Shown here: positions 9,589-49,180 of the stretch, piece by piece
How the letters are laid out: each line of letters begins with the position of its first letter
Position numbering within the stretch: position 1 is the stretch's first letter
Origin: an archaeon
GTDB lineage: Archaea > Nanobdellota > Nanobdellia > Pacearchaeales > GW2011-AR1
DNA: 64,000 bases
Reading direction: 5' to 3'
Assembly (NCBI GenBank): GCA_018697035.1
Contig: JABHSE010000001.1
Span: 29,653 to 93,652 of the forward strand
Made by a program: the position numbers and the translations under genes
Notes under the pieces: generated by a model
The model's input: only the letters and a program-made list of their open reading frames with translations
Databases searched by the model: none
Told to the model about the DNA's origin: nothing

Positions 9589-9707
9589 GTGTGAAGTTTG
9601 GAGTAGGGTTGTGGGTTATTTGAGACCGACTGTTCGATGGAATGATGGGAAATTAGCTGAATTTGGTGATAGGACTACTTTCGGTTCCTGCTAATTTTCC
9701 TGCTGAT

Positions 9708-9800
9708 TTCTAGCGGTTTATACTTCGTTGGACGAACGCTCACGTACTCTTGTACGCTTCGCAACCGTCCGCCTCGTCTAAACCTGCTGTAAATCAGCAT
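9708..9800 (+). repeat. structured intergenic element, family A copy 1
   Basis: tctagcggtttatacttcgtt-ggacg-aacgctca-cgtac-tctt-gtacg-cttcgcaac-cgtcc-gcctcgtctaaacctgctgtaaatcagca. Confidence 0.75.
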
Positions 9801-9860
9801 GGTTTTTATTATATGGTTTAGTATAATAATTATTATAAGTGGCTGTTGTGTTTTTTTATT

Positions 9861-10340: not shown

Positions 10341-11044
10341 AGATTGCGGGATTGCAAAAAGTTTCGACGATTGATTATCCTGGGGAAATTTGTTGTGTGG
10401 TTTTTTTATTTGGTTGTAATTTTAGATGTGGGTTTTGTTATAACCCAGAATTGGTTGTTGGAGATGGTAAGCAGGAATTAGGGTTTTCTCAGGATGAGGT
10501 TTTGGAATTTTTATCTAGACGGATTGGGAAGTTAGATGGGGTTTGTATTTCGGGAGGCGAGCCTTTGATGAGTTTGGATTTTGATTTTGTGAAGAAGGTT
10601 AAGGAGATGGGATTTAAGATTAAAATTGACACTAATGGGAGTTTTCCTGATAAGCTTAAAGATTTGATTGATGAGGGGTTTGTTGATTATATTGCGATGG
10701 ATGTTAAGGGTGCGCGGGATGATTATTTTGAAATTGTGAATGCTGATGTTTGTTTGGAAAAGATTGAAAGGTCTATTAAGATTGTGAATGATTTCGGGGG
10801 TGAGTTCCGGACGACGATTGTTCCAGGGTTACATGATGTGGATAGTGTTTTGGAAATGGGCGAGTGGATGGGGCGTGTTTGTGGGAGGCCACCTGGGAAG
10901 ATTTTTTTGCAGGGGTTTAAGGTTTCTCATGATGGAATGATTGATTCGGCGTTTTTGAAGAAGGTTGATGTTTTGGAGGGGGAGTTGTTGAGGATGAAGG
11001 TGGAGGTTGAGGGGTTGTTTGGAGAAGTTGGGGTTCGGGTGTAG
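10337..11044 (+). CDS. nrdG: anaerobic RNR activating enzyme NrdG (radical SAM)
   Basis: CNFRCGFCYN matches the radical-SAM CxxxCxxC. Its start overlaps the cupin stop (ATGA). Confidence 0.75.
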   Translation: MKIAGLQKVSTIDYPGEICCVVFLFGCNFRCGFCYNPELVVGDGKQELGFSQDEVLEFLSRRIGKLDGVCISGGEPLMSLDFDFVKKVKEMGFKIKIDTNGSFPDKLKDLIDEGFVDYIAMDVKGARDDYFEIVNADVCLEKIERSIKIVNDFGGEFRTTIVPGLHDVDSVLEMGEWMGRVCGRPPGKIFLQGFKVSHDGMIDSAFLKKVDVLEGELLRMKVEVEGLFGEVGVRV

Positions 11045-11045
11045 A

Positions 11046-12278
11046 TTAATTTATTTTTTGTGCTAGTCTTTCTATTGCGTTTATGTAAGCGGCTATCCTT
11101 GTCGATGTTTGATGTTTTGTTTTTTTATTTAAGATTTCTTGTGTTGCATTGAACATTTTTTCTTTTAGTTTTTTGTCAACCTCTTCTGCTGTCCAGGATT
11201 CTTTGTTTATATTTTGATACCATTCGTAATAAGATACGGTTACACCGCCTGCGTTTGCTAGGATGTCTGGGAGGATAAGGATGTTTTTGGATTCTAGGAT
11301 TTTGTCGGCTTCAGGAGTTGTTGGTCCGTTTGCTAATTCTAGGATTATTTTTGCTTTTATTTGTTCTGCGTTTTTTTCTGTGATTTGATTTGCTAGGGCT
11401 GCTGGGACGAGGATGTCGCATTCTAATTCTAATAATTCTTGATTTGTTATTGTAGTTGTGTTAGGAATATCTTGCAGGTTGCCGTTTTGTTTTTTGTGTT
11501 CTAATACTGATTTGATATCTAGTCCTTCTTGGTTATATATTGCGTTTTTAGAATCTGAGATTGCGATGATTTTTGAATTGTCTTCTGATATTAGTTTTGC
11601 GAAGTTGCTTCCTGCGTTGCCGATTCCTTGTATTATTATGGTGGCGTTTTTTAGGGTTGAGATTATCTGGGTTTGTTCGATTGCTTTTTGTAAGACGAAT
11701 TGTCCGCCTCTTGCTGTTGCTGTGTCTCGTCCTAGTGAGCCTCCGTTCTCGATGGATTTTCCTGTGACTACTGCTCTCGCTTCTTCTATTGGTGTGGAAG
11801 TTTGTTTAGAGTATTCGTCTACTATGATGTCCATGATTTTGGCATTGGTGTATACGTCTGGTGCTGGGATGTCTTGTTGTGGTCCGATTACTGGTGTTAT
11901 TTTTTTTATGAAGGCGCGTGTTATGTTTTCTAGTTCTTTGTCTGATAATTCTTTTGGGTTACAGATTACACCACCTTTTCCGCCGCCTAGTGGGAGTCCT
12001 ACTGTCGCTGTTTTTATTGTCATCCAGGTTGCTAGTGCTGAGACTTCGTTTAGGTCGACTTGTGGATGGTATCGGATTCCGCCTTTGTATGGGCCGAGTA
12101 GAGAATTGTGTTGGATTCTGTATCCTGTGAATATCTTTGTTGAATCGTCGTCCATTTTGACTGGGAAGTTGACTTTTGTTTCTCGCTCGGTGTTTAGGAT
12201 TATGTTTAATTTTTCTTGTGAGAGGTTTAATTTTTCTGCGGCTTTTTTTATTATTGTTTTTGCGTTTTCTAATTCCAT
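11046..12278 (-). CDS. gdhA: glutamate dehydrogenase
   Basis: KGGIRYHPQVDLNEVSALATWMTIKTATVGLPLGGGKGG is the Glu/Leu/Phe/Val dehydrogenase signature. 410 aa. Confidence 0.85.
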   Translation of the reverse strand: MELENAKTIIKKAAEKLNLSQEKLNIILNTERETKVNFPVKMDDDSTKIFTGYRIQHNSLLGPYKGGIRYHPQVDLNEVSALATWMTIKTATVGLPLGGGKGGVICNPKELSDKELENITRAFIKKITPVIGPQQDIPAPDVYTNAKIMDIIVDEYSKQTSTPIEEARAVVTGKSIENGGSLGRDTATARGGQFVLQKAIEQTQIISTLKNATIIIQGIGNAGSNFAKLISEDNSKIIAISDSKNAIYNQEGLDIKSVLEHKKQNGNLQDIPNTTTITNQELLELECDILVPAALANQITEKNAEQIKAKIILELANGPTTPEADKILESKNILILPDILANAGGVTVSYYEWYQNINKESWTAEEVDKKLKEKMFNATQEILNKKTKHQTSTRIAAYINAIERLAQKIN

Positions 12279-13195: not shown

Positions 13196-14230
13196 ATGAT
13201 TATTGGGATTACTGGGACGTTTGGTGCTGGGAAGGGAACGGTTGTTGAGTTTTTGAAAGAGAAGGGTTTTGAGCATTTTTCGGTTAGGGAGTTTTTGATT
13301 GAGGAGATTTCGAAGAGGGGTTTGGAGGTTAGTCAAGGGAATATGGCTTCTGTTGCTAATGACTTGAGGGCTAAGAATGGGGCGAGTTATATTGTTGAGG
13401 AGTTGTATCGGAAGGCTGCGCTTTCAAGGGGGGATGTTGTTATTGAGAGTTTGAGGTGTCCTGGTGAGGTTGAGGTACTTAAGGGGAAAGATGGTTTTGT
13501 TTTGTGGGCGGTGGATGCTGATATTGAGAATAGGTATACTCGGACGATTGAAAGGAGTGATAGTGTTGGGGATGAGAAGGGTTTTTCGTTTCAGCAGTTT
13601 ATGCAAAGGGAACAGGAGCAAATGGGGAATAAGGATCCGACGATGCAGAACTTAGGGGTTTGTATTGAGATGGCGGATGTTGTTTTCCGGAACGATTGGA
13701 CGATTGCGGAATTGAAGGGGAAAGTGGAGAAGGTGCTTGAGAAGAAGATTGATGGGAATGTGAGACCTAGTTGGGATGAGTATTTTATGAAGTTGGCGGC
13801 TTTGGTTGGAGAGAGGTCAACTTGTTTAAGACATAATATTGGTGCTATTATTGTTAAAGATAAGAGGGTTATTACTACTGGTTATAATGGTTCGGCTAAG
13901 GGGATGCCTAATTGTGTTGAGGTTGGGTGCTTGAAGGATGAGTTGGGGATTAAGACTGGAACTGGACATGAGACTTGTCGCGCTGTTCATGCTGAGATGA
14001 ATGCAATTATTCAAGGAGCTTCACATGGTATTTCCGTTGAAGGGACTACTATATATTGTACTCATACTCCGTGCACTCTTTGTGCTAGGATGATTGTGAA
14101 TGCGGGGATAAAGAGGGTAGTTAGTTATCGTGATTATTCTGATGAGGGAGCTAGAAAGTTTTTGGAAAAAGCGAATGTTGTTTTGGATAAGATTGGTAGA
14201 CCTTCTGATAAAATAAGGTTTGTGGATTAA
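13196..14230 (+). CDS. P-loop (d)NMP-kinase-like domain fused to dCMP deaminase
   Basis: N-terminal Walker A IGITGTFGAGKGT. C-terminal deaminase Zn motifs HAEMNAI and PCTLCA. Confidence 0.65.
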   Translation: MIIGITGTFGAGKGTVVEFLKEKGFEHFSVREFLIEEISKRGLEVSQGNMASVANDLRAKNGASYIVEELYRKAALSRGDVVIESLRCPGEVEVLKGKDGFVLWAVDADIENRYTRTIERSDSVGDEKGFSFQQFMQREQEQMGNKDPTMQNLGVCIEMADVVFRNDWTIAELKGKVEKVLEKKIDGNVRPSWDEYFMKLAALVGERSTCLRHNIGAIIVKDKRVITTGYNGSAKGMPNCVEVGCLKDELGIKTGTGHETCRAVHAEMNAIIQGASHGISVEGTTIYCTHTPCTLCARMIVNAGIKRVVSYRDYSDEGARKFLEKANVVLDKIGRPSDKIRFVD

Positions 14231-22366: not shown

Positions 22367-22792
22367 ATGGCAGGTGTTATTGATATGCAGTTGATGAGGT
22401 ATATTAATTTATTTGCGCGGACGACTAAGGTTTCTACGACTAAGGTTTTTTATTATAATAATCAAATTATTTTTGCTGTTCCGAAAGCGAAGGTTTCTAT
22501 GGCGATTGGGAAGGGAGCTTGTAATATTAAGAGGATGAGTGAGACTTTGCGGAAGAAGATTCGGGTTGTTGTCATGCCGGCGGTTGATGATGTTGAGGGG
22601 ATTAAGAAGTTTGTTGGGGATGTTGTTGCGCCGATTGAGTTTGTTGGGATTGAGATGAAGGGTGGGAGTATTGTTGTTAATGCTGGACGGCAGAGCAAGG
22701 CGGCTTTGATTGGACGTAATAGGGGACGTGAGAAAGAGTTGGCTGATGTTATGAAGGATTTTTTTGGGGTTAGTAAGTTGCGGATTGCCTGA
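22367..22792 (+). CDS. nusA: archaeal NusA-like KH-domain transcription termination/antitermination factor
   Basis: 141 aa with two KH-like segments (GKGACNIKRM, IGRNRGREKEL). Sits between L30e and S12. Confidence 0.7.
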   Translation: MAGVIDMQLMRYINLFARTTKVSTTKVFYYNNQIIFAVPKAKVSMAIGKGACNIKRMSETLRKKIRVVVMPAVDDVEGIKKFVGDVVAPIEFVGIEMKGGSIVVNAGRQSKAALIGRNRGREKELADVMKDFFGVSKLRIA

Positions 22793-22817
22793 GTTTAATT
22801 TTTGATTCCTACTTGTA

Positions 22818-22905
22818 ATTTCTTGGTAAAAAAATGATTCACGTACGCCTGTACGCTTCACATTTTTTTACGCTGCGAAATTTCTGCGTATAAACCAAAA
22901 TTGTT
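22818..22905 (+). repeat. structured intergenic element, family B copy 1
   Basis: gtaaaaaaatg...[cgtac gcct gtacg]...catttttttac. An 11-bp A/U stem encloses the conserved GTAC hairpin. Confidence 0.7.
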
Positions 22906-22997: not shown

Positions 22998-23420
22998 ATG
23001 GGTTTGATGAATGGACGTAAGATGAAGAATAAGCGGAAGAAGTTTCGTGATAATAGGTTGCCTGATAAAAAGAAAAGGCTTGGTATTAGTTTGAAGTTTG
23101 ATCCACTTGGTCGGGCTAGTCAGGCTAAGGGTATTGTTGTTAAGAAGATGCAGAAGGAAGCTAAGCAGCCTAACTCTGGTATGAGGAAGTGTTGTAGGGT
23201 TCAGTTGATTAAGAATGGTAAAGAGGTTCCTGCTTTTATTCCTGGGAATTTGGCGCAGAAGTTTGTTGATGAGCATGATGAGGTTATTATTGAGAGGATT
23301 GGTGGGAAGCAGGGAAGGACTAAAGGGGATTTGTCTGGAGTTAGGTTTTGTGTTATTAAAGTAAACGATCAGCCATTGGAGAGACTTTGGATGGGTAAGA
23401 TTGAGAAGGGGCGACGATGA
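22998..23420 (+). CDS. rps12: ribosomal protein S12
   Basis: KKRLGISLKFDPLGRASQAKGIVVKKMQKEAKQPNSGMRKCCRVQLIKNGKEV matches S12/S23. TATA box at 22966-22975. Confidence 0.9.
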   Translation: MGLMNGRKMKNKRKKFRDNRLPDKKKRLGISLKFDPLGRASQAKGIVVKKMQKEAKQPNSGMRKCCRVQLIKNGKEVPAFIPGNLAQKFVDEHDEVIIERIGGKQGRTKGDLSGVRFCVIKVNDQPLERLWMGKIEKGRR

Positions 23421-23602
23421 ATCCCGAAGGTAATTTTCGAGTTCGTAAGAAGAGAGTTAGTGATTTGGTTAAGAAAACTACAAATCATATTAGTGCTTTT
23501 TACGACGATAGTACTAGTGGTGATGGTTTACCAAGTAAGAATAAGCGTTACCAATACTATTCTGTTCAGGAAAAAATAATCAAGTATGGAGGTGCGGATT
23601 AG
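23417..23602 (+). CDS. small basic ORF (61 aa) between S12 and S7
   Basis: Its start overlaps the S12 stop (ATGA). Its stop lies 2 nt before the S7 ATG. Confidence 0.3.
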   Translation: MNPEGNFRVRKKRVSDLVKKTTNHISAFYDDSTSGDGLPSKNKRYQYYSVQEKIIKYGGAD

Positions 23603-23604
23603 AT

Positions 23605-24201
23605 ATGGTAGAGATGAAGGTTTTTGGTTTGTTTGACGCTAGTGAAGTTAGAGTTGAGGATCCGGGTTTGAAGAAGGTTGTTAATTTGAATGCTAAGTTG
23701 ATGTTGAAGAGTCATGGTAGGATTAAGTGGGATCCAGCTAGGACTAAGGTTAATGTTGTTGAGAGATTGATTAATTTGTTGCAGGTTCCTGGAAGTCGAG
23801 GGAAGAAGCATAAGATTATTACTGGTTGGATTACGGGGAAGCAGACTCGGTGTACTGGGATTGTTATTGATGCGTTTAAGATAATTGAAGAGAAGACGAA
23901 GGAGAACCCTTTGAAGGTTTTTGTTCGGGCTATTGAGAATGCGGCTCCGAGAGATGAGACTACTACGATTGTTATGGGTGGTTCTAAATATCCTCAAGCA
24001 GTTGATGTTTCGCCACGACGAAGGTTGAATTTGGTTTTGAGGTATTTTGTTAATGGGTCCTATGATAAGGCGTTTAATAAGAAGGCGACGATTGTTGAGG
24101 CTTTGGCTAAAGAGATAATGTTGGCTGCGGATAATTCGGGTGAGTCTTATGCTGTTCGGAAGAGAGTGGATACGGAAAAACAGGCAGACGCGGCTCGGTA
24201 A
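23605..24201 (+). CDS. rps7: ribosomal protein S7
   Basis: 198 aa with the S7 pattern: VNLLQVPGSRGKK, the IVIDAFKIIEEKT region, and a C-terminal AVRKRVDTEK. Confidence 0.85.
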   Translation: MVEMKVFGLFDASEVRVEDPGLKKVVNLNAKLMLKSHGRIKWDPARTKVNVVERLINLLQVPGSRGKKHKIITGWITGKQTRCTGIVIDAFKIIEEKTKENPLKVFVRAIENAAPRDETTTIVMGGSKYPQAVDVSPRRRLNLVLRYFVNGSYDKAFNKKATIVEALAKEIMLAADNSGESYAVRKRVDTEKQADAAR

Positions 24202-24206
24202 TTTTA

Positions 24207-24296
24207 ATTTCTAGCGTTTCATACTTCGTTGCAAGAACACTCACGTACGCCTGTACGCTTCGCAACCTTGCGCCTTGTCTAAATCTGCTATAAATC
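24207..24296 (+). repeat. structured intergenic element, family A copy 2
   Basis: tttctagcgtttcatacttcgtt-gcaag-aacactca-cgtac-gcct-gtacg-cttcgcaac-cttgc-gccttgtctaaatctgctataaatc. Confidence 0.75.
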
Positions 24297-24320
24297 AAAA
24301 TTATTAACTGGAGTGTCATT

Positions 24321-24332
24321 ATTTTTATAAAG
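24321..24332 (+). promoter_or_regulatory. TATA box (tttttataaag) for leaderless ORF at 24353
   Basis: Consensus archaeal TATA about 25 nt upstream of the ATG. The same module follows element A3. Confidence 0.55.
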
Positions 24333-24352
24333 TTGGATTTTGTTCTTTTTTT

Positions 24353-24550
24353 ATGGATGATAGATTGGAGAAGATTCGTGCTTCGGAGAAGAAAATTAAG
24401 TTGGAGTTGATTGATGAAGGATGGGCACCTGTTGATAAGAAGGAGTTTGGTGGATACCTTTTCAAGATGATTGATGGTGAAAAGAATATTTATGCGCCTG
24501 ATGGTATGGGTGGGTATTATGTTAGGTATCGATTTTTTGTTAAAACTTAA
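24353..24550 (+). CDS. hypothetical small protein (65 aa)
   Basis: Leaderless ORF behind the A2 element and its promoter. No motif recognised. Confidence 0.35.
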   Translation: MDDRLEKIRASEKKIKLELIDEGWAPVDKKEFGGYLFKMIDGEKNIYAPDGMGGYYVRYRFFVKT

Positions 24551-24626
24551 AATTACTGACTTTTGTCATTTTTTTCAGAACTAGAGTATAATTATTTTTA
24601 TAAAGTGGTTATTTTTATACTTTACA

Positions 24627-24946
24627 TGAATAGGAAATATTTTGGGTATGCTGCTGGTTTGGCTGGTATGAGTATGTTTCTTTATGGATTGTTTTTTACG
24701 GATTTAAATCGTGTTTCCAAAAGTGATATTGTTGATGAGCTTCAGAGTGTCACTCGGGAGGTTGCGGCTTATAATTATGAGAATTTAGATAGGCTTGCGG
24801 AATTGGTTTCCGATTCTTCTAATGTAGAGAATTTGAGGTTATATTCTGATGCTAAGAATACTGAGCATAGGAAAGGTGTTTTGTTTTCTTTAGCTGGTTT
24901 GGCTGGAGTGATTGGTGGCCATGCTTTGGCTAAGAAAAAAGAGTAA
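24627..24946 (+). CDS. hypothetical small membrane protein
   Basis: TM segments (YAAGLAGMSMFLYGLFF and LAGLAGVIGGHAL). TATA box at 24594-24604. Confidence 0.35.
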
Positions 24947-25040
24947 GTAGTTGTTGTGACCAAGGGTGCTTTGGCTTGTTTTTTCGATTTGAATTTTATT
25001 ACAGCAAAACTTTATAAAAGGTTTTTTCGATTGCTTGTTC

Positions 25041-27212
25041 ATGGCTGCTGATATGACTGAGAAAGTTAAGGAATTACAGAATGATCCTACACATATTCGG
25101 AATATTGCTATTTGTGCACATATTGATCATGGGAAGACGACGTTTTCTGATAACTTACTTGCTGGTGCTGGGATGATGAGTGAGGCTTTGGCAGGGAAGG
25201 CGCGGACTTTGGATTTTCATGAAGATGAGGCGGAGAGAGGGATTACAATTGATTCAGCTTCGGTTTCTATGGTGCACACTCATGATAAGCAAGATTATTT
25301 GATTAATTTAATTGATACTCCAGGTCATGTTGATTTTGGTGGGGACGTTACTCGGGCTATGAGAGCGGTTGATGGTGCTATTGTTTTATCTTGTGCTAGT
25401 GAGGGGATTATGCCTCAGACTGAGACTGTTCTTCGTCAGGCTTTGAAGGAAAGAGTTAGACCCATTCTTTTTATTAATAAAGTTGATAGATTGATTCGAG
25501 AAGTTAAGCTTACTCCTGAAGAAATGCAGAAGAGGTTTATTGGAATTATTAATTCTGTTAATGAGTTGATTGCCGAGATTGCCGAGCCTGAGTATAAGCA
25601 AAAATGGCAAGTTGGTGTTGCTGATGGGACTGTTGCCTTTGGTAGTGCGTTTCATAATTGGGCATTGAGTATTCCGTATATGCAGAAGCATGGAATTAGT
25701 TTTAAAGAAGTCATTGAGGCTTATGAAGCTGGTGGAGAGGAATATAAGGTTTTAGCGAAGAGAGCTCCGATTCATGAGGTTATTTTGGGTATGGTTGTTG
25801 ATAATCATCCTAATCCTGTGACTGCTCAAGAATACAGAATCCCGAAGATTTGGCATGGTGATTTGGAGAGTGAGGCTGGAAAAGATTTTATGAATTGTAA
25901 TATTAAAGGTGAAGTTGCATTTGTTCCGATTAAGATTGTAATCGATCCTCATGCTGGTGAGGTTGCGGCTGGACGACTTTTTGGTGGGACTATTAAACAG
26001 GGTGATGAATTGTATATGAATATTGCTAAGACTAAGGTTAGGGCTCAGCAGGTTTCTATTTACAAGGGAGCTTCTAGGGTTCAGCTAAGTGAAGTTGTTT
26101 CTGGGAATATTGTTGGTATTGTTGGTTTGAAAGATGTTGTTGTTGGCGAGACTGTTTCTCGAAACCCGATTGAACCGTTTGAAGCTATTAGTCATTTGTT
26201 TGAGCCTGTTGTTACGAAGTCGATTAGTGCTAAGAGAACTGCTGATTTGCCGAAGCTGATTGAAATTTTGAGACAGATTGGGAAAGAGGATCCGAGTTTG
26301 AGGATTGAGATTAATGAAGAGACTGGGGAGTCGTTGATGTCGGGTATGGGAGAATTACATTTAGAGATTATCGAGAATAGAATTAAGAGCGAGAAGGGTC
26401 TTGAGATTGAGATGGGTCCTCCGATTATTGTTTATCGTGAGTCGGTTGCGAAGGTTAGTGATGTTGCTGTTGGGCGAACTCCAAATAAGCATAATGATTT
26501 TTTTGTTACGGTTGAGCCATTAGAGGAAGCGATTATTGAGGCTATTGCTGATGGGACCTTGCCAATCGGACGGATTAAGAAGAAAGATAAGGCGCTTGAT
26601 GAAACTTTGGTTGGTTTGGGGATTAGCCGAGATGAGGCGCAGCAGTATAGGGATATTTACAAGGGAAGTGTTTTTCAAGATAGGACGAAAGGTATTGTTC
26701 AGATTGGTGAGGTTATTGAATTGTTGCTTGATGCTTTTGAGCAGGTTATGGATGCTGGTCCGTTGGCGAGAGAGCCTTGTCATAAGATGAAGGTTTCTAT
26801 TGTTGATATGAAGTTGCATGAGGATGCTATTCATAGAGGCCCTGCACAGGTATACCCGGCTGTTCGTGATGCTATTAAGGAAGGTTTTGCTAAGGCTGTT
26901 CCTGTTATTTATGAGCCAGTTCAGGTTCATCAGATTGAAGCGCCGATTTCTTTTATGGGTGCTGTAACAAGTTTGGTTTCTACGAAGAGAGGGCAGTTGG
27001 TTGATGTCGAACAGGATGAGACTGGCGTGACTGTTCGTGCTGAGTTGCCGGTTTCGGAGATGATTGGTTGGACTAGCGATTTGAGGAGTTCGACTGAAGG
27101 TAGGGGTTCTTCGAGTTTGGTTAGTCAGACTTTTAAGAAGTTGCCTGGTGATATGCAAAGGAAGGTTATTGCGCAGATACGGGAGCGGAAGGGTTTAGCC
27201 GAAAACCAATAA
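25041..27212 (+). CDS. fusA: translation elongation factor 2
   Basis: G domain AHIDHGKTT and DTPGHVDF. 725 aa. Conserved position after S7. Confidence 0.95.
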   Translation: MAADMTEKVKELQNDPTHIRNIAICAHIDHGKTTFSDNLLAGAGMMSEALAGKARTLDFHEDEAERGITIDSASVSMVHTHDKQDYLINLIDTPGHVDFGGDVTRAMRAVDGAIVLSCASEGIMPQTETVLRQALKERVRPILFINKVDRLIREVKLTPEEMQKRFIGIINSVNELIAEIAEPEYKQKWQVGVADGTVAFGSAFHNWALSIPYMQKHGISFKEVIEAYEAGGEEYKVLAKRAPIHEVILGMVVDNHPNPVTAQEYRIPKIWHGDLESEAGKDFMNCNIKGEVAFVPIKIVIDPHAGEVAAGRLFGGTIKQGDELYMNIAKTKVRAQQVSIYKGASRVQLSEVVSGNIVGIVGLKDVVVGETVSRNPIEPFEAISHLFEPVVTKSISAKRTADLPKLIEILRQIGKEDPSLRIEINEETGESLMSGMGELHLEIIENRIKSEKGLEIEMGPPIIVYRESVAKVSDVAVGRTPNKHNDFFVTVEPLEEAIIEAIADGTLPIGRIKKKDKALDETLVGLGISRDEAQQYRDIYKGSVFQDRTKGIVQIGEVIELLLDAFEQVMDAGPLAREPCHKMKVSIVDMKLHEDAIHRGPAQVYPAVRDAIKEGFAKAVPVIYEPVQVHQIEAPISFMGAVTSLVSTKRGQLVDVEQDETGVTVRAELPVSEMIGWTSDLRSSTEGRGSSSLVSQTFKKLPGDMQRKVIAQIRERKGLAENQ

Positions 27213-27218
27213 TTTCAA

Positions 27219-27307
27219 TTTCTAGCGTTTCATACTTCGTTGCAAGAACACTCATGTGCGCTTGCACACTTCGTAATCTTGCGCCTCGTCTAAATCTGCT
27301 ATAAATT
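27219..27307 (+). repeat. structured intergenic element, family A copy 3
   Basis: About 90% identical to A2 over about 130 bp, including the downstream TATA. The inner hairpin changes to tgtgc-gctt-gcaca. Confidence 0.75.
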
Positions 27308-27363
27308 GGAATTGTTAAGTGGAGTGGCATTATTTTTATAAAGTTTAATTTATGAGTCAATTT

Positions 27364-27822
27364 ATGACTATTGACGGAAAAGAATTCAAGAAAGGTGGAG
27401 TCTATAAATTAGTTTCTAGTAATAGGCCTGAATATTTGAATTTAGTGGGGGTTAGAAAAGAGGTTTTATCGTCTGATAGTGTCAAATATGCTACGTTTTT
27501 TTCGGTTTTGCATGATTCTTCTGCCTTGATTAATTGTGATGATTTTTCGGCCTATAAGAACATTGTGCCTGTAAGAGACTTGAGAATTGAGGATAATGGA
27601 TTTTTGTCTTCGGTTAATAGTTGGAATGCTAAGCATATTTGGTATGATGCTAATATGGCTACGAGATCTGATTTTATGAAAAGTTGGTTGGAAGAATGTA
27701 CTGATGTTTTAAAGAAGCTTGGTTGTGAAAATATTGAAGATATTTTTCGAGGCAAGATAACTTGGGAAAAAGATAGTTGCGCTTACGGGGTTTTTGGTAG
27801 TGGTAGTGGTAAAAGATTATGA
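27364..27822 (+). CDS. hypothetical protein inserted between EF-2 and EF-1alpha
   Basis: ORF behind the A3 element and the TATA box at 27334-27344. The TATA-to-start distance favours the second ATG at 27364 as a leaderless start; the track starts at 27352. Confidence 0.4.
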   Translation: MTIDGKEFKKGGVYKLVSSNRPEYLNLVGVRKEVLSSDSVKYATFFSVLHDSSALINCDDFSAYKNIVPVRDLRIEDNGFLSSVNSWNAKHIWYDANMATRSDFMKSWLEECTDVLKKLGCENIEDIFRGKITWEKDSCAYGVFGSGSGKRL

Positions 27823-27924
27823 AGACCACTAACTTTAAAAACCAAAATCTATATTCTAAATTGTATCGTTTGGATAATATCTCTTCGACACAATTAAACT
27901 AACTAAATGAAAAAATAGAAAAAA

Positions 27925-29211
27925 ATGGCTAAAGAAAAACCAGGACTAAATGTTGTATTCGTTGGACACGTTGACCAGGGAAAATCTACTTGCGTTGGGC
28001 GAGTATTTTTTGATGGTGGCGCAGTCTCTGAACAAGAGATGAAGAAGTACAAGGAAGAAGCAGAGAAGCATGGTAAGGCTGGATTTGAATTCGCTTATGT
28101 GATGGATAATTTGAAGGAAGAGCGAGAGAGAGGAGTTACAATTAACTTGTCTTATAAGAAGCTTATTACTAAGAATTTTGAAGTTACTATAATCGATGCT
28201 CCGGGGCATAAGGATTTTGTTAAGAACATGATCACTGGTGCTTCGCAAGCGGATGCGGCTTTTTTGGTTGTTGGATGTGAAGACGGAGTTCAACCTCAGA
28301 CTAAAGAACACGTTTGGTTACTAAGGACTATGGGAGTTTCCCAGTTAGCGGTTCTTATTAACAAAATGGATGTTGTTGATTACGATCAGGCTAAGTTTGA
28401 TAAAGCTGCTGCTGATGTTAAAGAAGTTATCAAGCAAGCTGGTTATAACCCCGATACTACACCTTTCATTCCGGGCTCTGCTCTAATGGGAGAAGGTGTT
28501 TCACTTAAATCTGACAAGTTAGCATGGTACAAAGGACCAACTGTTTTAGAACAGATTGATAAGTTCGATGCTCCATCTAAACCAACAAACTTACCAATGC
28601 GTATGCCAATCCAGGATGTCTACGAGATTACTGGTATTGGAACTGTTCCTGTAGGAAAGATTGAAACAGGTATTATGAAAATCGGACAAAAGGTTATTGT
28701 ATTACCAGGACGATCTGGAAGCGGTATTCCAGGTGAGGTTCGAAGTATTGAAGCTCATCATGAGCAGTTAAAGGAAGGCGAAGCTGGAGACAATGTCGGT
28801 ATCAACATTCGAGGTGTTGGTAAGAAAGACATGGCTCGAGGCGACGTTATCTGTGAAGCTGCTAACCCGGCACCTATAGTTGAAGAATTTGAGGCACAAG
28901 TTGCTATCATTAATCATCCAACTGTTATTGCTAAAGGTTATACACCTGTATTCCATGTTCACACAGCTCAAGTTCCATGTCAATTCGTGGAATTAAAGGC
29001 TAAGTTGGATCCTGCTACTGGACAAGTAAGTGAAGAAAACCCTGACTTCTTGAAGAACGGAGATGTTGCTATTGTTAAGATCAAACCTGTTGGAAACCTA
29101 GTAATGGAATCCGCAGATAAGAATCCTAATATGGCACGGTTCGCAATTCGAGATGCTGGAGTTACAGTTGCTGCTGGCGTTTGTAAGTCTTTGACTGAAA
29201 AGAAATTATAG
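27925..29211 (+). CDS. tuf: translation elongation factor 1-alpha
   Basis: GHVDQGKST and DAPGHKDF. 428 aa. Confidence 0.95.
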
Positions 29212-29320: not shown

Positions 29321-29417
29321 TATTTTTTTATTTTGCCCTTTTTTGGGCTTTGAGATTTTTTTATTTGTATTGTTTAGTATACTATGTTTTTATAAATATT
29401 TGATTTTATTTATTTAC

Positions 29418-30258: not shown

Positions 30259-30730
30259 AAAGAAAAAAAGAAAAAAGAAAAAAAATTAGATGTCTTCTTC
30301 TAAATCTAGTGCGGGTTCTCCGAAATCTTCTTCGGGGAAGTTGTTTAGGCTTTCAGGTTCTGTCATTTGTTTTTTTTGGGCTAGTCATCTTCAAGTTCTT
30401 CTTCATCGTCGAATTCCTCTTCTTCAATGTCGTCTTCTTTTTTGATTTCTATTTTTGTGCCCTCTTTTTTATTTGAGATTTGGTGCTTTGAAATCTTTAT
30501 AAATATTTGTGCTAAATTTTCTTATCTTTGGAAAGGGTAAAAGAATTTAAAGAGAGATTTCCTTGAGATTTTTACGCTTTTCTGTTTAAATGTGGATGTG
30601 CAAAAGTTTTTAAATGAAGATTGTTGTTTTTTGTTATTAGAGATAGCTAGATAGAGTTAGTATTATCATCACATTCATGTTTGGAAGGTAGGGAGATATT
30701 TCTAATATAACTAAATGGAGAAAATAAAAT

Positions 30731-31891
30731 ATGGCAAAAATAAGTCCAACGTCGATAAAGTATCAGATTGTTGCTAAGTTTAACGCTGACGGGCCGTTTC
30801 AAAAACCTGATGTAATCGGGGCTTTGTTCGGGCAGACAGAAGGTTTACTTGGTGCTGATATGGAATTACGAGAGCTGCAGAAAGAAGGAAAGATTGGTAG
30901 GATCGAGGTAGATTTGGTCACCGAAGGTGGTAAGACTACTGGAGAGATTACTATTCCGACTGCACTTGATAAGACTGAGACTACAATTATTGCGGCTTCT
31001 CTTGAGACAATTGATAAGATTGGTCCAACTGATGCTACGATTAAGATTGCAGATATCTCGGATGTTCGAGGCGGAAAGAGAGATTATATTATGGAGAGGG
31101 CGAAAGCTCTTCTTGCTGGTATATCTAATGAGGGAATGGATTCTACTGAGATGGAAACTGAACTTCGTGAATCGACTCGAATTTCTAAGGCTGTTACATA
31201 CGGAGAAGAAGGTCTTGCTGCTGGTCCAAATATTGATGACGAGAAAGAATTGATTGTTGTCGAGGGTCGAGCTGATGTTGTGAATATGTTGAAGCATGGT
31301 ATCAAGAATGTTATTGGTATGCAGGGAACTCGGTTTCCGAAAACTATTGCTACTTTATCCGAGACAAAGGAAATTACTTTGTTTGTTGATGGAGATAGAG
31401 GCGGTAAGTTGATTGCTCAAAATGTTTGTGACAATGCGAAGGTTGTATATATTGCGACTGCACCTGACGGAAAGGAAGTTGAAGAGCTAGCTGGTAAAGA
31501 GCTTTTGATCGCTTTGCGAAAGAAGGTTCCTGCTGCGGTTTTTTTGAAGAATGGTAGTGGAGCGCTTGCGACTGGTTCGCGACGAGCTACTGCATCTGTT
31601 GAAGGAATTGTTAGGCGAGAGTTGACTAATGACGATATTTCGAAGCTTCGAGAACTTAGTTCTGATATTAAGGGCAAGAATGTCTTGGTTGTGAATGATA
31701 GTTTAGAAGTTGTGAAAAACGTTTCAGCTTTGAGGCTCGGTTCGATTGATGCGAAAGATGCGTTTGTTTTGATGGTTGCGGAAGCTACTGGTGTTGTTGT
31801 TCAGGCTGCTGAGAGATTTCAATCTAAGGCGGTTGCGGCGAAGACATTTGAGAAGACTATTGTTACTGAGATTCAACTTGTATCACTTTAG
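30731..31891 (+). CDS. dnaG: archaeal DnaG-like primase (TOPRIM)
   Basis: N-terminus IKYQIVAKFNADGPFQKPDVIGALFGQTEGLLGADMELRELQKEGKIGRIEV matches the archaeal DnaG signature. A TOPRIM EGRADVVNM...DGDRGG follows. Confidence 0.75.
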   Translation: MAKISPTSIKYQIVAKFNADGPFQKPDVIGALFGQTEGLLGADMELRELQKEGKIGRIEVDLVTEGGKTTGEITIPTALDKTETTIIAASLETIDKIGPTDATIKIADISDVRGGKRDYIMERAKALLAGISNEGMDSTEMETELRESTRISKAVTYGEEGLAAGPNIDDEKELIVVEGRADVVNMLKHGIKNVIGMQGTRFPKTIATLSETKEITLFVDGDRGGKLIAQNVCDNAKVVYIATAPDGKEVEELAGKELLIALRKKVPAAVFLKNGSGALATGSRRATASVEGIVRRELTNDDISKLRELSSDIKGKNVLVVNDSLEVVKNVSALRLGSIDAKDAFVLMVAEATGVVVQAAERFQSKAVAAKTFEKTIVTEIQLVSL

Positions 31892-31909
31892 TAAAATCGA
31901 TTTTATTGG

Positions 31910-31995
31910 AAAATTTCTTGGTAAAAGAAATTCTCGCGTACCATATGTACGCCACGAATTTTTTTACGCTTCGAAATTTCCTCACTGAAATCAAT
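31910..31995 (+). repeat. structured intergenic element, family B copy 3
   Basis: gtaaaagaaattc-tcgcgtac-catat-gtacgcc-ac-gaatttttttac. Confidence 0.7.
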
Positions 31996-32049
31996 TTTGT
32001 TTGGGTCCGTTTTTGGGCTCTTTTTATTTTTTTATTTTTTTGGTTTTGA

Positions 32050-46886: not shown

Positions 46887-49049
46887 ATGGCAAAAAAAAT
46901 AAAGTTGGACATTGAAGGGATGCATTGTGCTTCGTGCTCGAAGATAGTGACTTCTGAATTGGAGAAGATTGGCGCTAGGAATGTTAGTGTTAACCCGGTT
47001 AGTGGGAAGTCTTTTGCAGAAGTTGATGACAGTGTTTCTTTTGAGCAGATTGGAAAAGCTGTGAAAGATGCAGGGTTTAAGCTGATTGGATTCAGTGAGG
47101 GCTCTGCTTCTGGTGCCCCTTCTTCTTTTAAACCTAGTAATGAAATTAATACTTGGAAGACTAAGTTGATTAGTGTTTGGGGGCTGACCTCTCTTATTGT
47201 AGCTATTATGTATTCTGAATATTTAATTGGAGCACCTCTTGTTCCAATTAAATGGATGATTCCTTTAATGCTGGTTTTGAGTTTTCCAATTATTTTTATT
47301 TTTGGTTTTTCTACTATTAAATCTGGAGCTAGGGGTTTTGTTCGATTGCAGTTTACTATGGATTCTTTGATTGCACTTGGAACTGTCGTTGCTTATTCGA
47401 CTGGTATACTTAGTTATTTTATTGATGTGACGAGTTTTGCCGGTGTGTCAGGAATGATTATGACTATTTTTATTACGGGAAAATTTATTGAGGCTAAGGC
47501 TAAGGGTCGTGCGACTTCGGAAATTCGGAAGTTGTTGGAGCTTGGGGCGAAGAAGGCTTTGGTTTTACGAGGGAAAAAGGAGATTGAGATTGATATTAGT
47601 GAGGTTAAAATTGGGGATGTTATGATTGTGAAGCCCGGAGAGAAGATTCCGACTGATGGCGTTGTTGTCAAGGGTGAGAGTGCTGTTGATGAGTCGATGA
47701 TTACTGGGGAGAGTTTGGCGGTTGAGAAGATGAGGGGGGGAAAGGTCATTGGAGCGACTATTAATCAAGATGGAGTACTTTATATTAAGGCAACTAAGAT
47801 TGGGAGTGATACTTTTTTGTCACATATTGTGAAGTTGGTCGAAGAGGCGCAGGGGACAAAGGTTCCGATTCAGAAGTTGGCGGACAAGGTGACGGGTGTT
47901 TTTGTTCCGGTTATTTTAGTATTAGCTCTTTTGACTTTTTTGGGATGGTATCTTATCTTTGACGTTTCCTTAAGTATTGCTCTTAGTAATGCTATTGCTG
48001 TTTTGGTTATTGCGTGTCCATGCGCCTTGGGGTTGGCAGTTCCTATTTCTTTGATGGTTGGTTCTGGAATGGGTGCGAAGCGTGGCATACTTATTAGAAA
48101 AGGTGAGGCTATTCAAACCATGAAGGAAGTTAAGACGGTTGTTTTTGATAAGACTGGGACGATTACAAAGGGTGAGCCTGAGGTTGTTGAAGTTTCTACA
48201 AAAAATGAAAAAAAGTTGTTTGAAATTGCTGGAAGTTTGGAGAAATTAAGTGAGCATCCTTTGGCTAGGGCTGTTGTTAAGAAGGCTGGACTGAAGAAGT
48301 ATTTGAGCGTTAAGAAATTTAAGGTTATTCGAGGGAAGGGGCTTGAGGGAGTTATTGGAGGGAAAAAATATATTGTTGGCAACGAGGCCTTGATGAAGGA
48401 CAAAAGAATTGCCCTTGGGAGTTATGCTAAGGTGGTTAAGGGTTTTGCTGAGAAGGGATTTAGTGTTATGGTTGTTGTTGAAAATAAAGTAGTTCTCGGG
48501 GCTATGGGAATTGCGGATGCGGTTAAGGAAGATTCTAGAGAGGCTGTTGCTCGGTTGAATCGTGGTGGGTTTAGGACGGTTATGATTACTGGGGATAATG
48601 AGGTTACGGCTAGAGCTATTGCTCGAGAGGTTGGAATTAAGGAGGTTATTGCTGGGGTTATGCCAGGGGATAAAGCGAAAGAAGTTATTAGGTTGCAAAA
48701 GAGTGGTATGGTCGCGTTTGTTGGAGACGGGGTTAATGATGCTGTTGCTTTGAAGGAAGCGAATGTGGGGATTGCTATGGGGGGAGGTAGTGATATTGCG
48801 ATTGAGGCTGGGGACATAGTTCTTGCTAAGGGGAATTTAACTGGGGTTGTTGAGGCGATAAAGTTATCTAATGCGACATTTAGAAAGATTAAGCAAAATT
48901 TGTTTTGGGCGTTTTTTTATAATGTTGTTGCGATTCCCTTGGCTGTTGCGGGTTTTTTGAATCCTGTTGTTGCAGAGATTGCTATGGCGCTTTCTTCTAT
49001 TACGGTAGTCACTAATGCTAATTTGCTTAGGTTTTCTTTTAATTCTTAG
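46887..49049 (+). CDS. copA: copper-translocating P1B-type ATPase
   Basis: N-terminal [19 protein letters not shown] (ACPCALG). [17 protein letters not shown]. Confidence 0.9.
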
Positions 49050-49125
49050 TGACTTATACTTCGTTAAAAGAACGCTCGTGTACGCTTGTACATGTCGCAA
49101 CCTTTTGCCTTGTCTAAGCCTACTA
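49046..49125 (+). repeat. structured intergenic element, family A copy 4
   Basis: tacttcgtt-aaaag-aacgctcg-tgtac-gctt-gtaca-tgtcgcaac-ctttt-gccttgtctaagcc. Both stems covary relative to A1-A3. Confidence 0.7.
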
Positions 49126-49180
49126 AGAATTGAAAGTAGGATTTAGTAATTGTTATAAAGATTGAGTTGTGTTTATTTTT

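What the first reader, a model, noticed from the sequence alone, without database searches (positions are those of the whole stretch)
24207..27363. Element-plus-promoter modules sit in front of lineage-specific ORFs inserted into conserved operons
A2 and A3 are about 90% identical over about 130 bp, and the identity runs through the downstream TATA box attatttttataaagtt. Each is followed at once by a non-core ORF: 24353-24550 plus 24627-24946 between S7 and EF-2, and 27364-27822 between EF-2 and EF-1alpha.

The same arrangement recurs elsewhere:
- A1 precedes the cupin gene wedged between nrdD and nrdG.
- A4 precedes the AKR and cupin genes after copA.
- B2 precedes an unknown ORF where S10 normally follows EF-1alpha.
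- B3 precedes an unknown membrane protein.

Six of the seven elements therefore mark a junction between a core gene and an accessory ORF. One reading is that the element is the boundary of a mobile or recombined gene cassette: a terminator, then a promoter, then cargo. The other is that it simply insulates highly expressed core genes from insertions.
Basis: partly seen in the sequence, partly recalled or inferred. Interest (0 to 1): 0.6.

Follow-up and report, generated by a model that had tools for sequence, protein, structure and literature searches.

The report
Stop-codon hairpin repeats in DPANN archaeon
The repeated "elements" are a previously undescribed family of ~105-base folded hairpins that sit on the stop codons of housekeeping genes in one group of tiny (DPANN) archaea; they belong to the gene in front of them, not to the small inserted genes behind them.

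Summary
The repeats are real. A2 and A3 are 88% identical over 142 nt, and the window holds seven copies, all on the + strand. They are not cassette borders. Types A and B are two versions of one ~105-nt imperfect hairpin. About 94% of cells pair, and 26 of 34 (A) and 23 of 31 (B) pairs show compensatory changes. The internal loops are more conserved than the stems. No Rfam family matches.

Across 71 copies from the window, related genomes and metagenomes, 66 have a co-oriented upstream ORF whose stop codon lies in the hairpin's 5' arm. These upstream genes are core genes such as S7, EF-2, EF-1alpha, NusA, DnaG, NrdD, CopA, RadA, RPA, GINS, RFC and eIF-1A.

Hairpin and inserted ORF occur independently. 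At the EF-2|EF-1alpha junction all four combinations exist. One contig (L148) has both hairpins and no inserted ORFs. Another genome (L003) has homologues of orf65 and orf156, but no hairpin at EF-2|EF-1alpha and its orf65 homologue lies ~1.1 kb from the nearest one.

The shared TATA region is a generic promoter motif of this clade. It occurs 10 times in the window and only 3 of those sites adjoin a hairpin.

Best reading: a 3'-UTR hairpin of the upstream gene, acting as terminator, insulator or 3'-end stabiliser, and homogenised within genomes like bacterial REP or ERIC repeats. The function is inferred, not shown.

The parts
24199..24303 (+). A2 hairpin (type A). Its first three bases are the TAA stop codon of S7.
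   Evidence: R1 125 bits; covariation; fold
27210..27314 (+). A3 hairpin (type A). Its first three bases are the TAA stop codon of EF-2.
   Evidence: R1 123 bits. 93% identical to the post-EF-2 copy in L005 and 90% to A2 over the core.
9698..9802 (+). A1 hairpin, starting 6 nt after the start of the stop codon (9692-9694) of the 39-aa NrdD C-terminal ORF
   Evidence: R1 120 bits; sequence; stop offset -6
49034..49138 (+). A4 hairpin. The last codons of copA and its TAG stop (49047-49049) lie inside the 5' arm.
   Evidence: R1 117 bits; sequence. The same +13 stop offset is seen in a metagenomic copA copy, L092.
22798..22903 (+). B1 hairpin (type B), just after the NusA stop and before S12 (a core-core junction)
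   Evidence: R2 93 bits; R1 38.5 bits
29204..29308 (+). B2 hairpin (type B). The EF-1alpha stop TAG (29209-29211) lies inside the 5' arm. T-runs and a short GC hairpin follow.
   Evidence: R2 111 bits; tail sequence
31893..31999 (+). B3 hairpin (type B) at the stop of the DnaG-like Toprim gene. It is followed by a GC hairpin (32003-32020) and T-runs, then the conserved gene g170.
   Evidence: R2 111 bits; terminator-like site; g170 conserved in relatives
24306..24332 (+). Promoter of orf65 (AACTGGAGTGTCATTATTTTTATAAAG): a generic clade promoter, not part of the hairpin
   Evidence: Motif found 10 times in the window, only 3 next to hairpins; families D2, D7 and D12; same motif before the L003 homologues without an adjacent hairpin
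27317..27343 (+). Promoter of orf156 (AAGTGGAGTGGCATTATTTTTATAAAG)
24353..24550 (+). orf65, a small accessory ORF with one homologue (43% identity) at the same junction in L003
24626..24946 (+). orf106, a small accessory ORF with its own promoter at 24594-24605; no homologue in the related loci and no Pfam, PHROG or NCBIfam match
27352..27822 (+). orf156, an ORFan with only 3 relatives among 5.8 billion proteins
   Evidence: low-confidence model
23605..24201 (+). Ribosomal protein S7 gene, owner of A2
   Evidence: Pfam PF00177, E = 1e-36
25041..27212 (+). EF-2 gene, owner of A3
   Evidence: Pfam; relatives
27925..29211 (+). EF-1alpha gene, owner of B2. Its own conserved promoter and leader lie at 27826-27924.
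   Evidence: Pfam. CCACTAACTTTAAAAACC is also found directly after the EF-2 stop in L001 and after the hairpin in L148.

Best explanation
The A and B elements are two subtypes of one family of ~105-nt structured hairpins. The family is specific to a Pacearchaeota/Woesearchaeota-like DPANN clade (relatives with EF-2 at least ~82% identical).

Anatomy:
- A long outer stem whose first bases are, or enclose, the stop codon of the upstream gene.
- Conserved internal loops.
- A middle stem that varies by compensatory change.
- An apical CGUAC-N4-GUACG hairpin.

Each copy belongs to the gene in front of it. It would be transcribed as that gene's 3' UTR. The next gene, core or accessory, starts from its own separate promoter. 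The small lineage-specific ORFs are gained and lost at the same junctions independently of the hairpins.

Inferred mechanism: the hairpin marks and protects the 3' end of the upstream transcript. It would act with downstream T-tracts as a terminator or insulator and as a block to 3'-to-5' decay. The conserved loops are probably read by a trans-acting factor.

Copies in one genome are kept alike by gene conversion or copying, as in bacterial REP or ERIC repeats.

Shown: the structure, its position, its orientation, its independence from inserts and its clade restriction. Inferred: that the element is transcribed, and what it does.
For: Structure:
- Type A (40 sequences): 94.2% of cells pair, against 31-40% in slid controls. 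26 of 34 pairs carry compensatory changes, and 0 of 500 shuffles reach this.
- Type B (22 sequences): 94.6% paired, 23 of 31 pairs compensatory.
- Non-apical unpaired columns are more conserved than paired ones (1.48 against 1.26 bits).
- G-U pairs outnumber A-C mismatches 97 to 29 on the + strand, which favours RNA in the sense of the upstream gene.

Position:
- 66 of 71 copies have a co-oriented upstream ORF of at least 60 aa. Its stop lies -14 to +20 nt from the first paired base; 34 are at 0 or -1, and most of the rest at +6, +13 or +20.
- All 36 copies in 79 EF-2 loci sit at the stops of only five genes: NusA, S7, EF-2, EF-1alpha and DnaG.
- Metagenome copies follow S7, EF-2, CopA, RadA, RPA, GINS, RFC, eIF-1A, T2SSE/F and ferredoxin genes. 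Orthologous genes share the same stop offset.
- The outer 3' arm co-varies with the last EF-1alpha codons.

Independence from inserts.

Promoter is a separate unit.

T-runs and short GC hairpins follow many copies, above all after EF-1alpha and DnaG. This places the long hairpin inside the 3' UTR.

While hairpins stay 75-93% identical between relatives, the flanking intergenic DNA does not align.
Against: - No transcript data: nothing here shows that the hairpin is transcribed or where RNA 3' ends fall.
- Type A has no U-tract of its own. Only 25 of 44 A copies have a T5 run within 60 nt downstream, and some of these runs are the next promoter.
- Type B carries a U7 run inside its 3' arm. This could stop transcription before the outer 3' arm is made, yet that outer stem still co-varies. 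That is easier to explain by read-through or by a DNA-level role.
- Many orthologous junctions lack any hairpin, so it is dispensable.
- Within-genome similarity (0.88-0.90 for S7/EF-2 pairs, against 0.74 for the same gene in other genomes) and A/B swaps at the same junction also fit a selfish repeat.
- No contig has elements on both strands. Orientation relative to genes therefore cannot be separated from orientation relative to replication.
Confidence: 0.6

Rival explanations
1. A selfish, non-autonomous palindromic DNA repeat, comparable to REP, ERIC, Correia or MITE elements. It would spread to gene ends and be maintained because a transposase or recombinase recognises the folded single strand. 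Any effect on the transcript would be a by-product.
For: - Presence/absence polymorphism at orthologous junctions with sharp edges. L001 reads TAATTTT|GTTAAC where the window has the whole hairpin.
- A and B types swap at the same junction in close relatives.
- Copies within a genome resemble each other more than orthologous copies do.
- The 5' arm offers stop codons in all three frames, as expected for something that lands in gene ends.
- Loops are conserved while stems compensate, as for hairpins read by IS200/IS605-type enzymes.
Against: - No target-site duplication: 56 of 71 copies have none and the rest only 2-3 nt.
- Orientation is fixed relative to the upstream gene in 66 of 71 copies.
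- The same gene keeps the same stop offset across genomes, and the 3' arm co-varies with coding bases. This indicates in-place evolution.
- G-U pairs exceed A-C mismatches 97 to 29.
- None found in viral contigs.
- No transposase was noticed among the window genes annotated, though the window was not fully annotated.
Confidence: 0.22
2. A cis-acting 3'-UTR signal read by a specific RNA-binding protein or RNase. It would tune translation termination or mRNA fate of a set of information-processing genes. Because the stop codon is inside the stem, the terminating ribosome must open the hairpin, as shown for E. coli REPs that lie within 15 nt of a stop codon.
For: - The stop codon is embedded in the outer stem in most copies.
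- The loops are more conserved than the stems.
- The gene set is dominated by translation, transcription and replication functions.
- Genome-specific signatures shared by copies could reflect co-evolution with a trans factor.
- Precedent: REPs closer than 16 nt to the stop codon stall ribosomes and lower translation (PMC12306157, citing its reference 17).
Against: - No candidate factor has been identified.
- The hairpin is absent from the same genes in many close relatives, which is odd for an essential regulon signal.
- DPANN genomes consist largely of such genes anyway, so the gene set may simply reflect genome content.
- By eye, no K-turn, H/ACA or C/D features; no Rfam match.
Confidence: 0.13
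3. One reading: the element is the recombination boundary (attC-like) of mobile units made of terminator, promoter and cargo ORF.
For: - In the window, five of seven elements precede accessory ORFs.
- The junctions of this gene cluster really are hot spots for ORFans: 93 of 115 gap ORFs are singletons.
- Two small-ORF families occur at different junctions in different genomes.
- There is a weak overall association: OR 2.95, p = 0.019.
Against: - Hairpins without cargo (L148, L004/L145, L028, L008, B1, B3) and cargo without an adjacent hairpin (L003, L063, L026, L006, L015, L024, L029 and others) are both common.
- No second copy sits at the far end of the cargo.
- 0 of 71 copies have an RYYYAAC site at the 5' end and none has both attC core sites.
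- The element follows orthologous core genes, not promoterless cassettes.
- The ORF families that moved between junctions mostly lack hairpins.
Confidence: 0.03

Closest known systems
Bacterial REP / BIME elements (E. coli and others), including the stop-codon-proximal REPs
   Same: Repeated extragenic hairpins at gene 3' ends within transcripts. They are polymorphic between relatives and similar within a genome. Proposed roles are mRNA 3'-end protection, termination and, when within 15 nt of the stop codon, control of upstream translation (PMC12306157, PMC3733652).
   Different: REPs are 20-40 bp single stems tagged by an unpaired GTAG or CGTC at one end. They often occur as dimers in both orientations and are linked to RAYT transposases. 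This element is ~105 nt with three helices and conserved internal loops. It has strict orientation and its stop codon lies inside the stem. It is archaeal, and no transposase is known for it.
ERIC (enterobacterial repetitive intergenic consensus) and Correia/NEMIS elements
   Same: Imperfect palindromes of 100-150 nt in transcribed intergenic regions. They are present or absent at orthologous sites with sharp edges and fold into long RNA hairpins that alter mRNA stability (from general knowledge, not tested here).
   Different: Those elements occur in both orientations and show MITE traits such as a TA duplication and terminal inverted repeats. No duplication and only one orientation are seen here.
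Integron attC sites and gene cassettes, including those reported in Archaea (PMC9668308)
   Same: Imperfect hairpins of 60-140 nt after ORFs. [quoted passage not shown]
   Different: attC needs R''/L'' and L'/R' core sites, follows promoterless cassette ORFs in arrays, and works with IntI. Here there are no core sites, the upstream genes are orthologous housekeeping genes, and the downstream genes have their own promoters.
Intrinsic terminators (bacterial hairpin plus U-run) and archaeal U-tract/aCPSF1 termination (PMC8716108)
   Same: Location at the end of transcription units. Type B contains an apical GC hairpin followed by a U7 run, and many copies are followed by T-runs.
   Different: Terminators are short and not conserved in sequence. 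This element is long, has conserved loops and an outer stem that pairs across the U-run. Type A has no U-run of its own.

Membership tests
Integron attC / gene cassette | Inverse core site RYYYAAC at the 5' end and core site GTTRRRY at the 3' end | tested here: not met
   0 of 71 copies have RYYYAAC near the 5' end, 9 of 71 have GTTRRRY near the 3' end, and none has both.
Integron attC / gene cassette | Follows promoterless, mobile cassette ORFs in arrays; hairpin and ORF move together | tested here: not met
   The upstream genes are orthologous core genes. Hairpin and inserted ORF occur independently. Downstream ORFs have their own TATA promoters.
Integron attC / gene cassette | Integron integrase (IntI) in the genome | not testable with these tools
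   Only a 64-kb window and flanks of up to 10 kb around the matches were available. The whole genome was not scanned.
REP (GTAG/CGTC-tagged) elements | Single stem-loop of 20-40 bp with an unpaired GTAG or CGTC tag at one end | tested here: not met
   The element is ~105 nt with 31-34 pairs in 3-5 helices. A conserved CGTC lies in an internal loop (CCTCGTCTAAA), not at an end. Criteria taken from PMC3733652.
REP (GTAG/CGTC-tagged) elements | Association with a RAYT (IS200/IS605-like) transposase | not testable with these tools
   No whole-genome access.
MITE | Target-site duplication flanking the element; insertion in either orientation | tested here: not met
   56 of 71 copies have no abutting direct repeat; the rest have 2-3 nt. 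All copies are co-oriented with the upstream gene.
Any Rfam 15 family (including C/D and H/ACA sRNAs, ribozymes, riboswitches) | Score at or above the family's gathering threshold | tested here: not met
   Only 4 tRNAs reach gathering score in the window. At E <= 5, only chance matches to miRNA precursors at 21-22 bits against cut-offs of 65-100.
Structured RNA element (general criterion) | Base pairs maintained by compensatory substitutions beyond controls | tested here: met
   94% paired against 31-49% in slid controls. 26 of 34 and 23 of 31 pairs have double changes, and 0 of 500 shuffles reach the observed values.
Intrinsic (hairpin + U-run) terminator | Short GC-rich hairpin immediately followed by a U-run | tested here: inconclusive
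   Type B has an apical hairpin plus U7 inside the element. Type A has none. Separate GC hairpin plus T-run sites follow B2, B3 and several EF-1alpha and DnaG copies.
Protein-coding mini-gene on the opposite strand | Open reading frame kept in all copies | tested here: not met
   A minus-strand frame is open in 27 of 40 type A copies, but 11 of 40 have stops in every frame. The substitutions are compensatory, not synonymous.

The most novel reading that the evidence does not exclude
The hairpin is a sequence-specific, factor-recognised 3'-end signal. This could be a structured terminator or 3'-processing and stability element, or a stop-codon-coupled translational control element. It would be used by one DPANN lineage for its core replication, transcription and translation genes. 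That would be the first conserved structured RNA signal of this kind in Archaea, where termination is thought to need only U-tracts and aCPSF1. The two interchangeable interiors (A and B) on a common outer stem and apex would then be alternative 'codes' read by the factor.
Probability: 0.25. Interest if true: 0.75.

Novelty: new variant of a known kind. Interest (0 to 1): 0.5.

Why it matters
DPANN archaea are uncultured and have tiny genomes, and almost nothing is known about how they end, stabilise or insulate transcripts. This is a strongly co-varying ~105-nt RNA-type structure. Its loops are conserved and it is welded to the stop codons of S7, EF-2, EF-1alpha, RadA, RPA, GINS and similar genes. 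It is present in many metagenomes and absent from Rfam. That makes it a concrete, testable handle on 3'-end biology in this group, and a ready covariance model for annotation.

It also corrects a tempting misreading. The frequent small ORFans between core genes in these genomes are real and interesting, but they are not delivered by these hairpins.

Tried and rejected
- **Intein or insertion in EF-2 of relatives.** This was suggested by long match spans. It was only a cross-hit of EF-2 to the neighbouring EF-1alpha GTPase domain.
- **Rfam.** Searched at gathering score and at E <= 5; nothing was found.
- **Viral contigs.** Patterns for A and B were scanned. No real copy was found; one 19-bit marginal hit.
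- **attC core sites and target-site duplications.** Absent.
- **Antisense or sense mini-ORF through the hairpin.** Not conserved.
- **K-turn, H/ACA pocket plus ACA, C/D boxes, BHB motif, SRL mimicry.** Inspected by eye only in alignments A3 and A7; no defining motif was seen.
- **Alternative GUUG/CAAC pairing.** It lacks covariation.
- **Function of the inserted ORFs.** Pfam, PHROGs and NCBIfam gave nothing. An AlphaFold model of orf156 from a 3-sequence alignment had pLDDT 53, too poor for a fold search.
- **Other stop-anchored hairpins after EF-2 in more distant relatives.** L009, L016 and L040 gave z-scores of -2.2 to -5.0 in a folding scan, but they are not members of this family and were not pursued.
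- **Population variants of the same organism.** Four contigs from other samples showed 0 mismatches over 1.6 kb, so they add no information on selection.
- **Literature.** Searches for a prior description in Pacearchaeota or DPANN found nothing relevant.
Full report
**Setting.** The window comes from a DPANN archaeon of the Pacearchaeota/Woesearchaeota type. Its EF-2 is up to 93% identical to MAGs labelled Pacearchaeota, Woesearchaeota or Nanoarchaeota. orf156 is recorded at NCBI as hypothetical protein HN903_00565 [archaeon], on a contig of 783,805 bp.

The local gene order is:
- NusA-KH 22367-22792
- B1
- S12 22998-23420
- orf61
- S7 23605-24201
- A2
- orf65 24353-24550
- orf106 24626-24946
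- EF-2 25041-27212
- A3
- orf156 27352-27822
- EF-1alpha 27925-29211
- B2
- orf105
- a TPR protein
- a DnaG-like Toprim protein 30731-31891
- B3
- g170

These assignments rest on Pfam.

- The repeat finder gives A2 24199-24340 and A3 27210-27351 at 88% identity over 142 nt. It also finds A1 (9698-9839), A4 (49034-49175) and the B family (alignments).
- A covariance model run with filters off finds exactly seven copies in 64 kb, all on the + strand.

Two statements need correcting. First, B3 precedes g170, which is conserved at that place in nearly all relatives, and B1 lies between NusA and S12. So five of seven elements, not six, precede an accessory ORF. Second, orf106 starts at 24626.

**What the element is.** Each copy folds as a long imperfect hairpin with the same apex, CGUAC-N4-GUACG.

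Type A evidence:
- A MAFFT alignment of 14 type A copies from the window and related genomes gave a consensus structure of 34 pairs, 23 with compensatory changes.
- With 40 copies, 94.2% of cells pair, against 31-40% when the 3' partner is slid.
- 26 of 34 pairs show double changes (215 cells), and no shuffle of 500 reaches any of the five measures.

Type B evidence:
- 22 copies behave the same way: 94.6% paired and 23 of 31 pairs compensatory.
- The A model detects every B copy over its full length at 38-72 bits.

A and B share the outer stem (ATTTCTAGCG / CTGCTATAAAT) and the apex but differ in the interior. They are two subtypes of one architecture.

The non-apical unpaired columns are more conserved than the paired ones (1.48 against 1.26 bits). 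The motifs are AUACUUCGUUG, GAACNCUC, CUUCGCAACC and GCCUCGUCUAAA in type A, and AAUUUCUUGGUAAAA and UUUUUUUACGCUGCGAAAUU in type B. This is the signature of a structure whose loops are read by something. G-U pairs outnumber A-C mismatches 97 to 29 on the + strand, which mildly favours RNA made in the sense of the upstream gene.

No Rfam family matches. A minus-strand reading frame through the hairpin is open in only 27 of 40 copies, so the element is not coding.

**Where it sits.** I fetched 79 EF-2 loci with 10-kb flanks and searched them with both models.
- All 36 hits are on the strand of the gene cluster.
- Every hit starts at the stop codon of one of five genes: NusA, S7, EF-2, EF-1alpha or DnaG.
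- Hits occur only in loci whose EF-2 is at least ~82% identical to the window's.

A metagenome scan for a type A motif added 31 copies.

Over all 71 copies, 66 have a co-oriented upstream ORF of at least 60 aa. Its stop codon lies between -14 and +20 of the first paired base. Thirty-four stops are at 0 or -1, twelve at +6, five at +13 and two at +20. Of the five exceptions, two sit after a 45-aa upstream ORF (A1 and its near-identical metagenome copy), two lie within 200 nt of a contig end, and one is a weak hit.

The offsets correspond to stop triplets inside the 5' arm: TAA at base 1, TAA at 7, TAG at 14 and TGA or TAA at 21. Together these cover all three frames.

The upstream genes in metagenomes are S7, EF-2, CopA, RadA (2), RPA (2), GINS (2), RFC, eIF-1A (2), T2SSE (3), T2SSF and a ferredoxin. 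Orthologous genes keep the same offset: copA +13, RPA +20, eIF-1A and EF-1alpha +6, S7 and EF-2 0.

In the EF-1alpha copies, the outermost 3' arm changes to stay complementary to the last codons. That points to evolution in place.

Elements without insertions:
- L148 reads NusA-S12-S7-[A]-EF-2-[A]-EF-1alpha-TPR-DnaG. Only 75 and 45 nt separate each hairpin from the next core gene.
- L004/L145, L028 and L008 have S7-hairpin-EF-2 with total gaps of 159-210 nt.
- Window B1 and B3 and several EF-1alpha and DnaG copies are also followed directly by conserved genes.

The same ORFs without the element:
- L003 has an orf156 homologue (52% identity) starting 44 nt after the EF-2 stop, with no hairpin.
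- Its orf65 homologue lies ~1.1 kb beyond the nearest hairpin.

At EF-2|EF-1alpha all four states exist:
- Window: hairpin and ORF.
- L148: hairpin only.
- L003: the orf156 homologue only. L063 also has a 156-aa ORF and no hairpin there, but no similarity to orf156 was detected.
- L001: neither.

Over 106 junctions of the five kinds the counts are:

| | Inserted ORF | No inserted ORF |
|---|---|---|
| Hairpin | 20 | 13 |
| No hairpin | 25 | 48 |

This gives OR 2.95 and p = 0.019, without correction for relatedness. The ORF-presence test is not significant within any junction type; the only nominal signal there is a larger leftover gap at EF-2|EF-1alpha. The weak trend is what one would expect if a 3' insulator is retained where a new transcription unit follows.

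The element is never repeated at the far side of the 'cargo'. It has no attC core sites and no target-site duplication.

**The promoter part.** The identity of A2 and A3 beyond the hairpin is a clade-wide promoter motif, roughly RGTRT-N3-5-ATTTTTATAAAG.
- ATTTTTATAAAG (up to 1 mismatch) occurs 10 times in the window against 1.8 expected. Only three sites are next to hairpins (families D2, D7 and D12).
- The same extended motif precedes the L003 homologues of orf156 and orf65 with no hairpin next to it.
- The distance from hairpin to TATA box varies among copies.
- When the next gene is EF-1alpha, the hairpin is followed instead by that gene's own conserved promoter and leader, CCACTAACTTTAAAAACC....

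Hairpin and promoter are therefore separate units that happen to abut.

**The inserted ORFs.**
- Of 115 ORFs of at least 50 aa in the gaps of this cluster across relatives, 93 are singletons.
- orf156 has 3 relatives among 5.8 billion proteins.
- A family of 85-95 aa ORFs recurs at S7|EF-2 in six genomes, alongside an A hairpin, a B hairpin or none.
- Two families occur at different junctions in different genomes.

Nothing could be learned about their function.

**How it most likely works.**

Shown: it is a selected hairpin structure with conserved loops. It is fixed to the stop codon of the upstream gene and co-oriented with it. It is independent of what follows, restricted to one clade, and preserved (75-93% identity) where the surrounding intergenic DNA no longer aligns.

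Inferred: it is transcribed as the 3' UTR of the upstream gene and defines or protects that transcript's 3' end. Supporting points:
- It sits at the ends of the classical archaeal transcription units: after NusA, after S12-S7, after EF-2 and after EF-1alpha.
- T-runs follow many copies, 22 of 27 type B and 25 of 44 type A.
- After EF-1alpha and DnaG there is in addition a short GC hairpin with a T-run. This places the long hairpin inside the UTR rather than making it the terminator itself.

Unresolved:
- Type B carries a U7 run in its 3' arm that could itself stop RNA polymerase, yet the outer stem still co-varies.
- Type A has no U-run.
- Because the stop codon is within the stem, a terminating ribosome must open it. 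In E. coli, REPs closer than 16 nt to a stop codon stall ribosomes and lower translation (PMC12306157). A translational role is therefore a live alternative.

**Repeat-family behaviour.**
- S7 and EF-2 copies in one genome are 0.88-0.90 identical. The same-gene copies from other genomes average 0.74 (background 0.73).
- Orthologous signal also exists: A3 to L005 0.93, A2 to L088 0.92, A4 to L092 0.88.
- In the two closest relatives, L005 and L036, the post-S7 copy is type B where the window has type A.
- L001 shows a clean absence: TAATTTT|GTTAAC.

This looks like concerted evolution or copying, as in REP or ERIC families. A selfish DNA-level explanation cannot be excluded.

**Comparison with known systems.**
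- It works most like bacterial REP, ERIC or Correia-type transcribed palindromes.
- It fails the defining tests for REP (size, end tag), MITE (duplication, both orientations) and attC (core sites, cassette context).
- It matches no Rfam family.
- Archaeal termination as currently described needs only U-tracts and aCPSF1 (PMC8716108). A conserved structured 3' element would be an addition to that picture.
- I found no prior description in the searchable literature.

**Verdict.** The alternative (insulation of core genes) is the better approximation. The thing itself is a new, well-supported structured hairpin family of a known general kind, with unknown but testable function.

Noticed in passing
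window 9575-9694 (+), overlapping the end of nrdD (7405-9588): The NrdD C-terminal glycyl-radical motif (…CEVWSRVVGYLRP…) is encoded in a separate 39-aa ORF. It is in another frame, and its ATG overlaps the last codons of the main nrdD ORF. This could be a split gene, a programmed frameshift or an assembly error. A metagenome contig (L146) has the same downstream sequence.
   Followed up: partly
window 4841, 5958, 12437, 24321, 24594, 27332, 33386, 49149, 62583 (+) and 30495-30506 (-): A strong clade-specific promoter consensus, roughly RGTRT-N3-5-ATTTTTATAAAG, lies ~20-30 nt before start codons (leaderless or short-leader genes). It is 5-fold over-represented and also precedes small ORFs in related genomes.
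   Followed up: partly
window 27826-27924; L001 ~12175-12278; L148 ~5830-5865: EF-1alpha has its own conserved promoter-like box, CCACTAACTTTAAAAACC. In the window and L001 it is followed by a conserved leader of ~80 nt, unlike the short-leader genes around it. This may be a regulatory 5' UTR.
   Followed up: no
Junctions NusA|S12|S7|EF-2|EF-1alpha|TPR|DnaG|g170 in L001-L063: The gaps between these core genes are hot spots for small fast-evolving ORFs. 93 of 115 are singletons. Two families (L008 140 aa / L026 137 aa, and L009 67 aa / L063 68 aa) sit at different junctions in different genomes, so the small genes themselves seem to move.
   Followed up: partly
window 23417-23602 (+): orf61 fills the S12-S7 spacer exactly: its start overlaps the S12 stop and its end lies 2 nt before S7. 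It has no family match. In relatives the S12|S7 gap ranges from -2 to 713 nt and holds unrelated small ORFs.
   Followed up: no
window 32003-32020 and 29330-29350 (+); L001 ~13690-13720; L005 ~11070-11100; L062, L063, L018: Short GC-rich hairpins followed by T5-T8 runs (bacterial-style intrinsic-terminator look) lie 10-30 nt after the long hairpins. They occur specifically downstream of EF-1alpha and DnaG, in several genomes.
   Followed up: partly
L040 ~10280-10400; L009 12170-12295; L016 12170-12290: Other long hairpins start at the EF-2 stop codon in genomes or junctions where models R1 and R2 find nothing (z-scores of -2.2 to -5.0). Stop-anchored hairpins of other sequence families may exist in more distant relatives.
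   Followed up: partly
L197-L200 (ENA ERZ27237598 and ERZ27246207; JGI 3300003496 and 3300004111): The same organism recurs in many samples: the S7 protein is listed in 34 blocks of the collection, with contigs up to 546 kb. There are 0 mismatches over 1.6 kb spanning S7, A2, orf65, orf106 and the start of EF-2, so this is a very clonal population.
   Followed up: yes
Type A hairpins, minus strand (e.g. window 24107-24319 and 27166-27360): One minus-strand frame through the hairpin is stop-free in 27 of 40 copies. It reads a similar basic peptide (…[30 protein letters not shown]). It is probably a by-product of the conserved nucleotides, since 11 copies have stops in every frame.
   Followed up: yes
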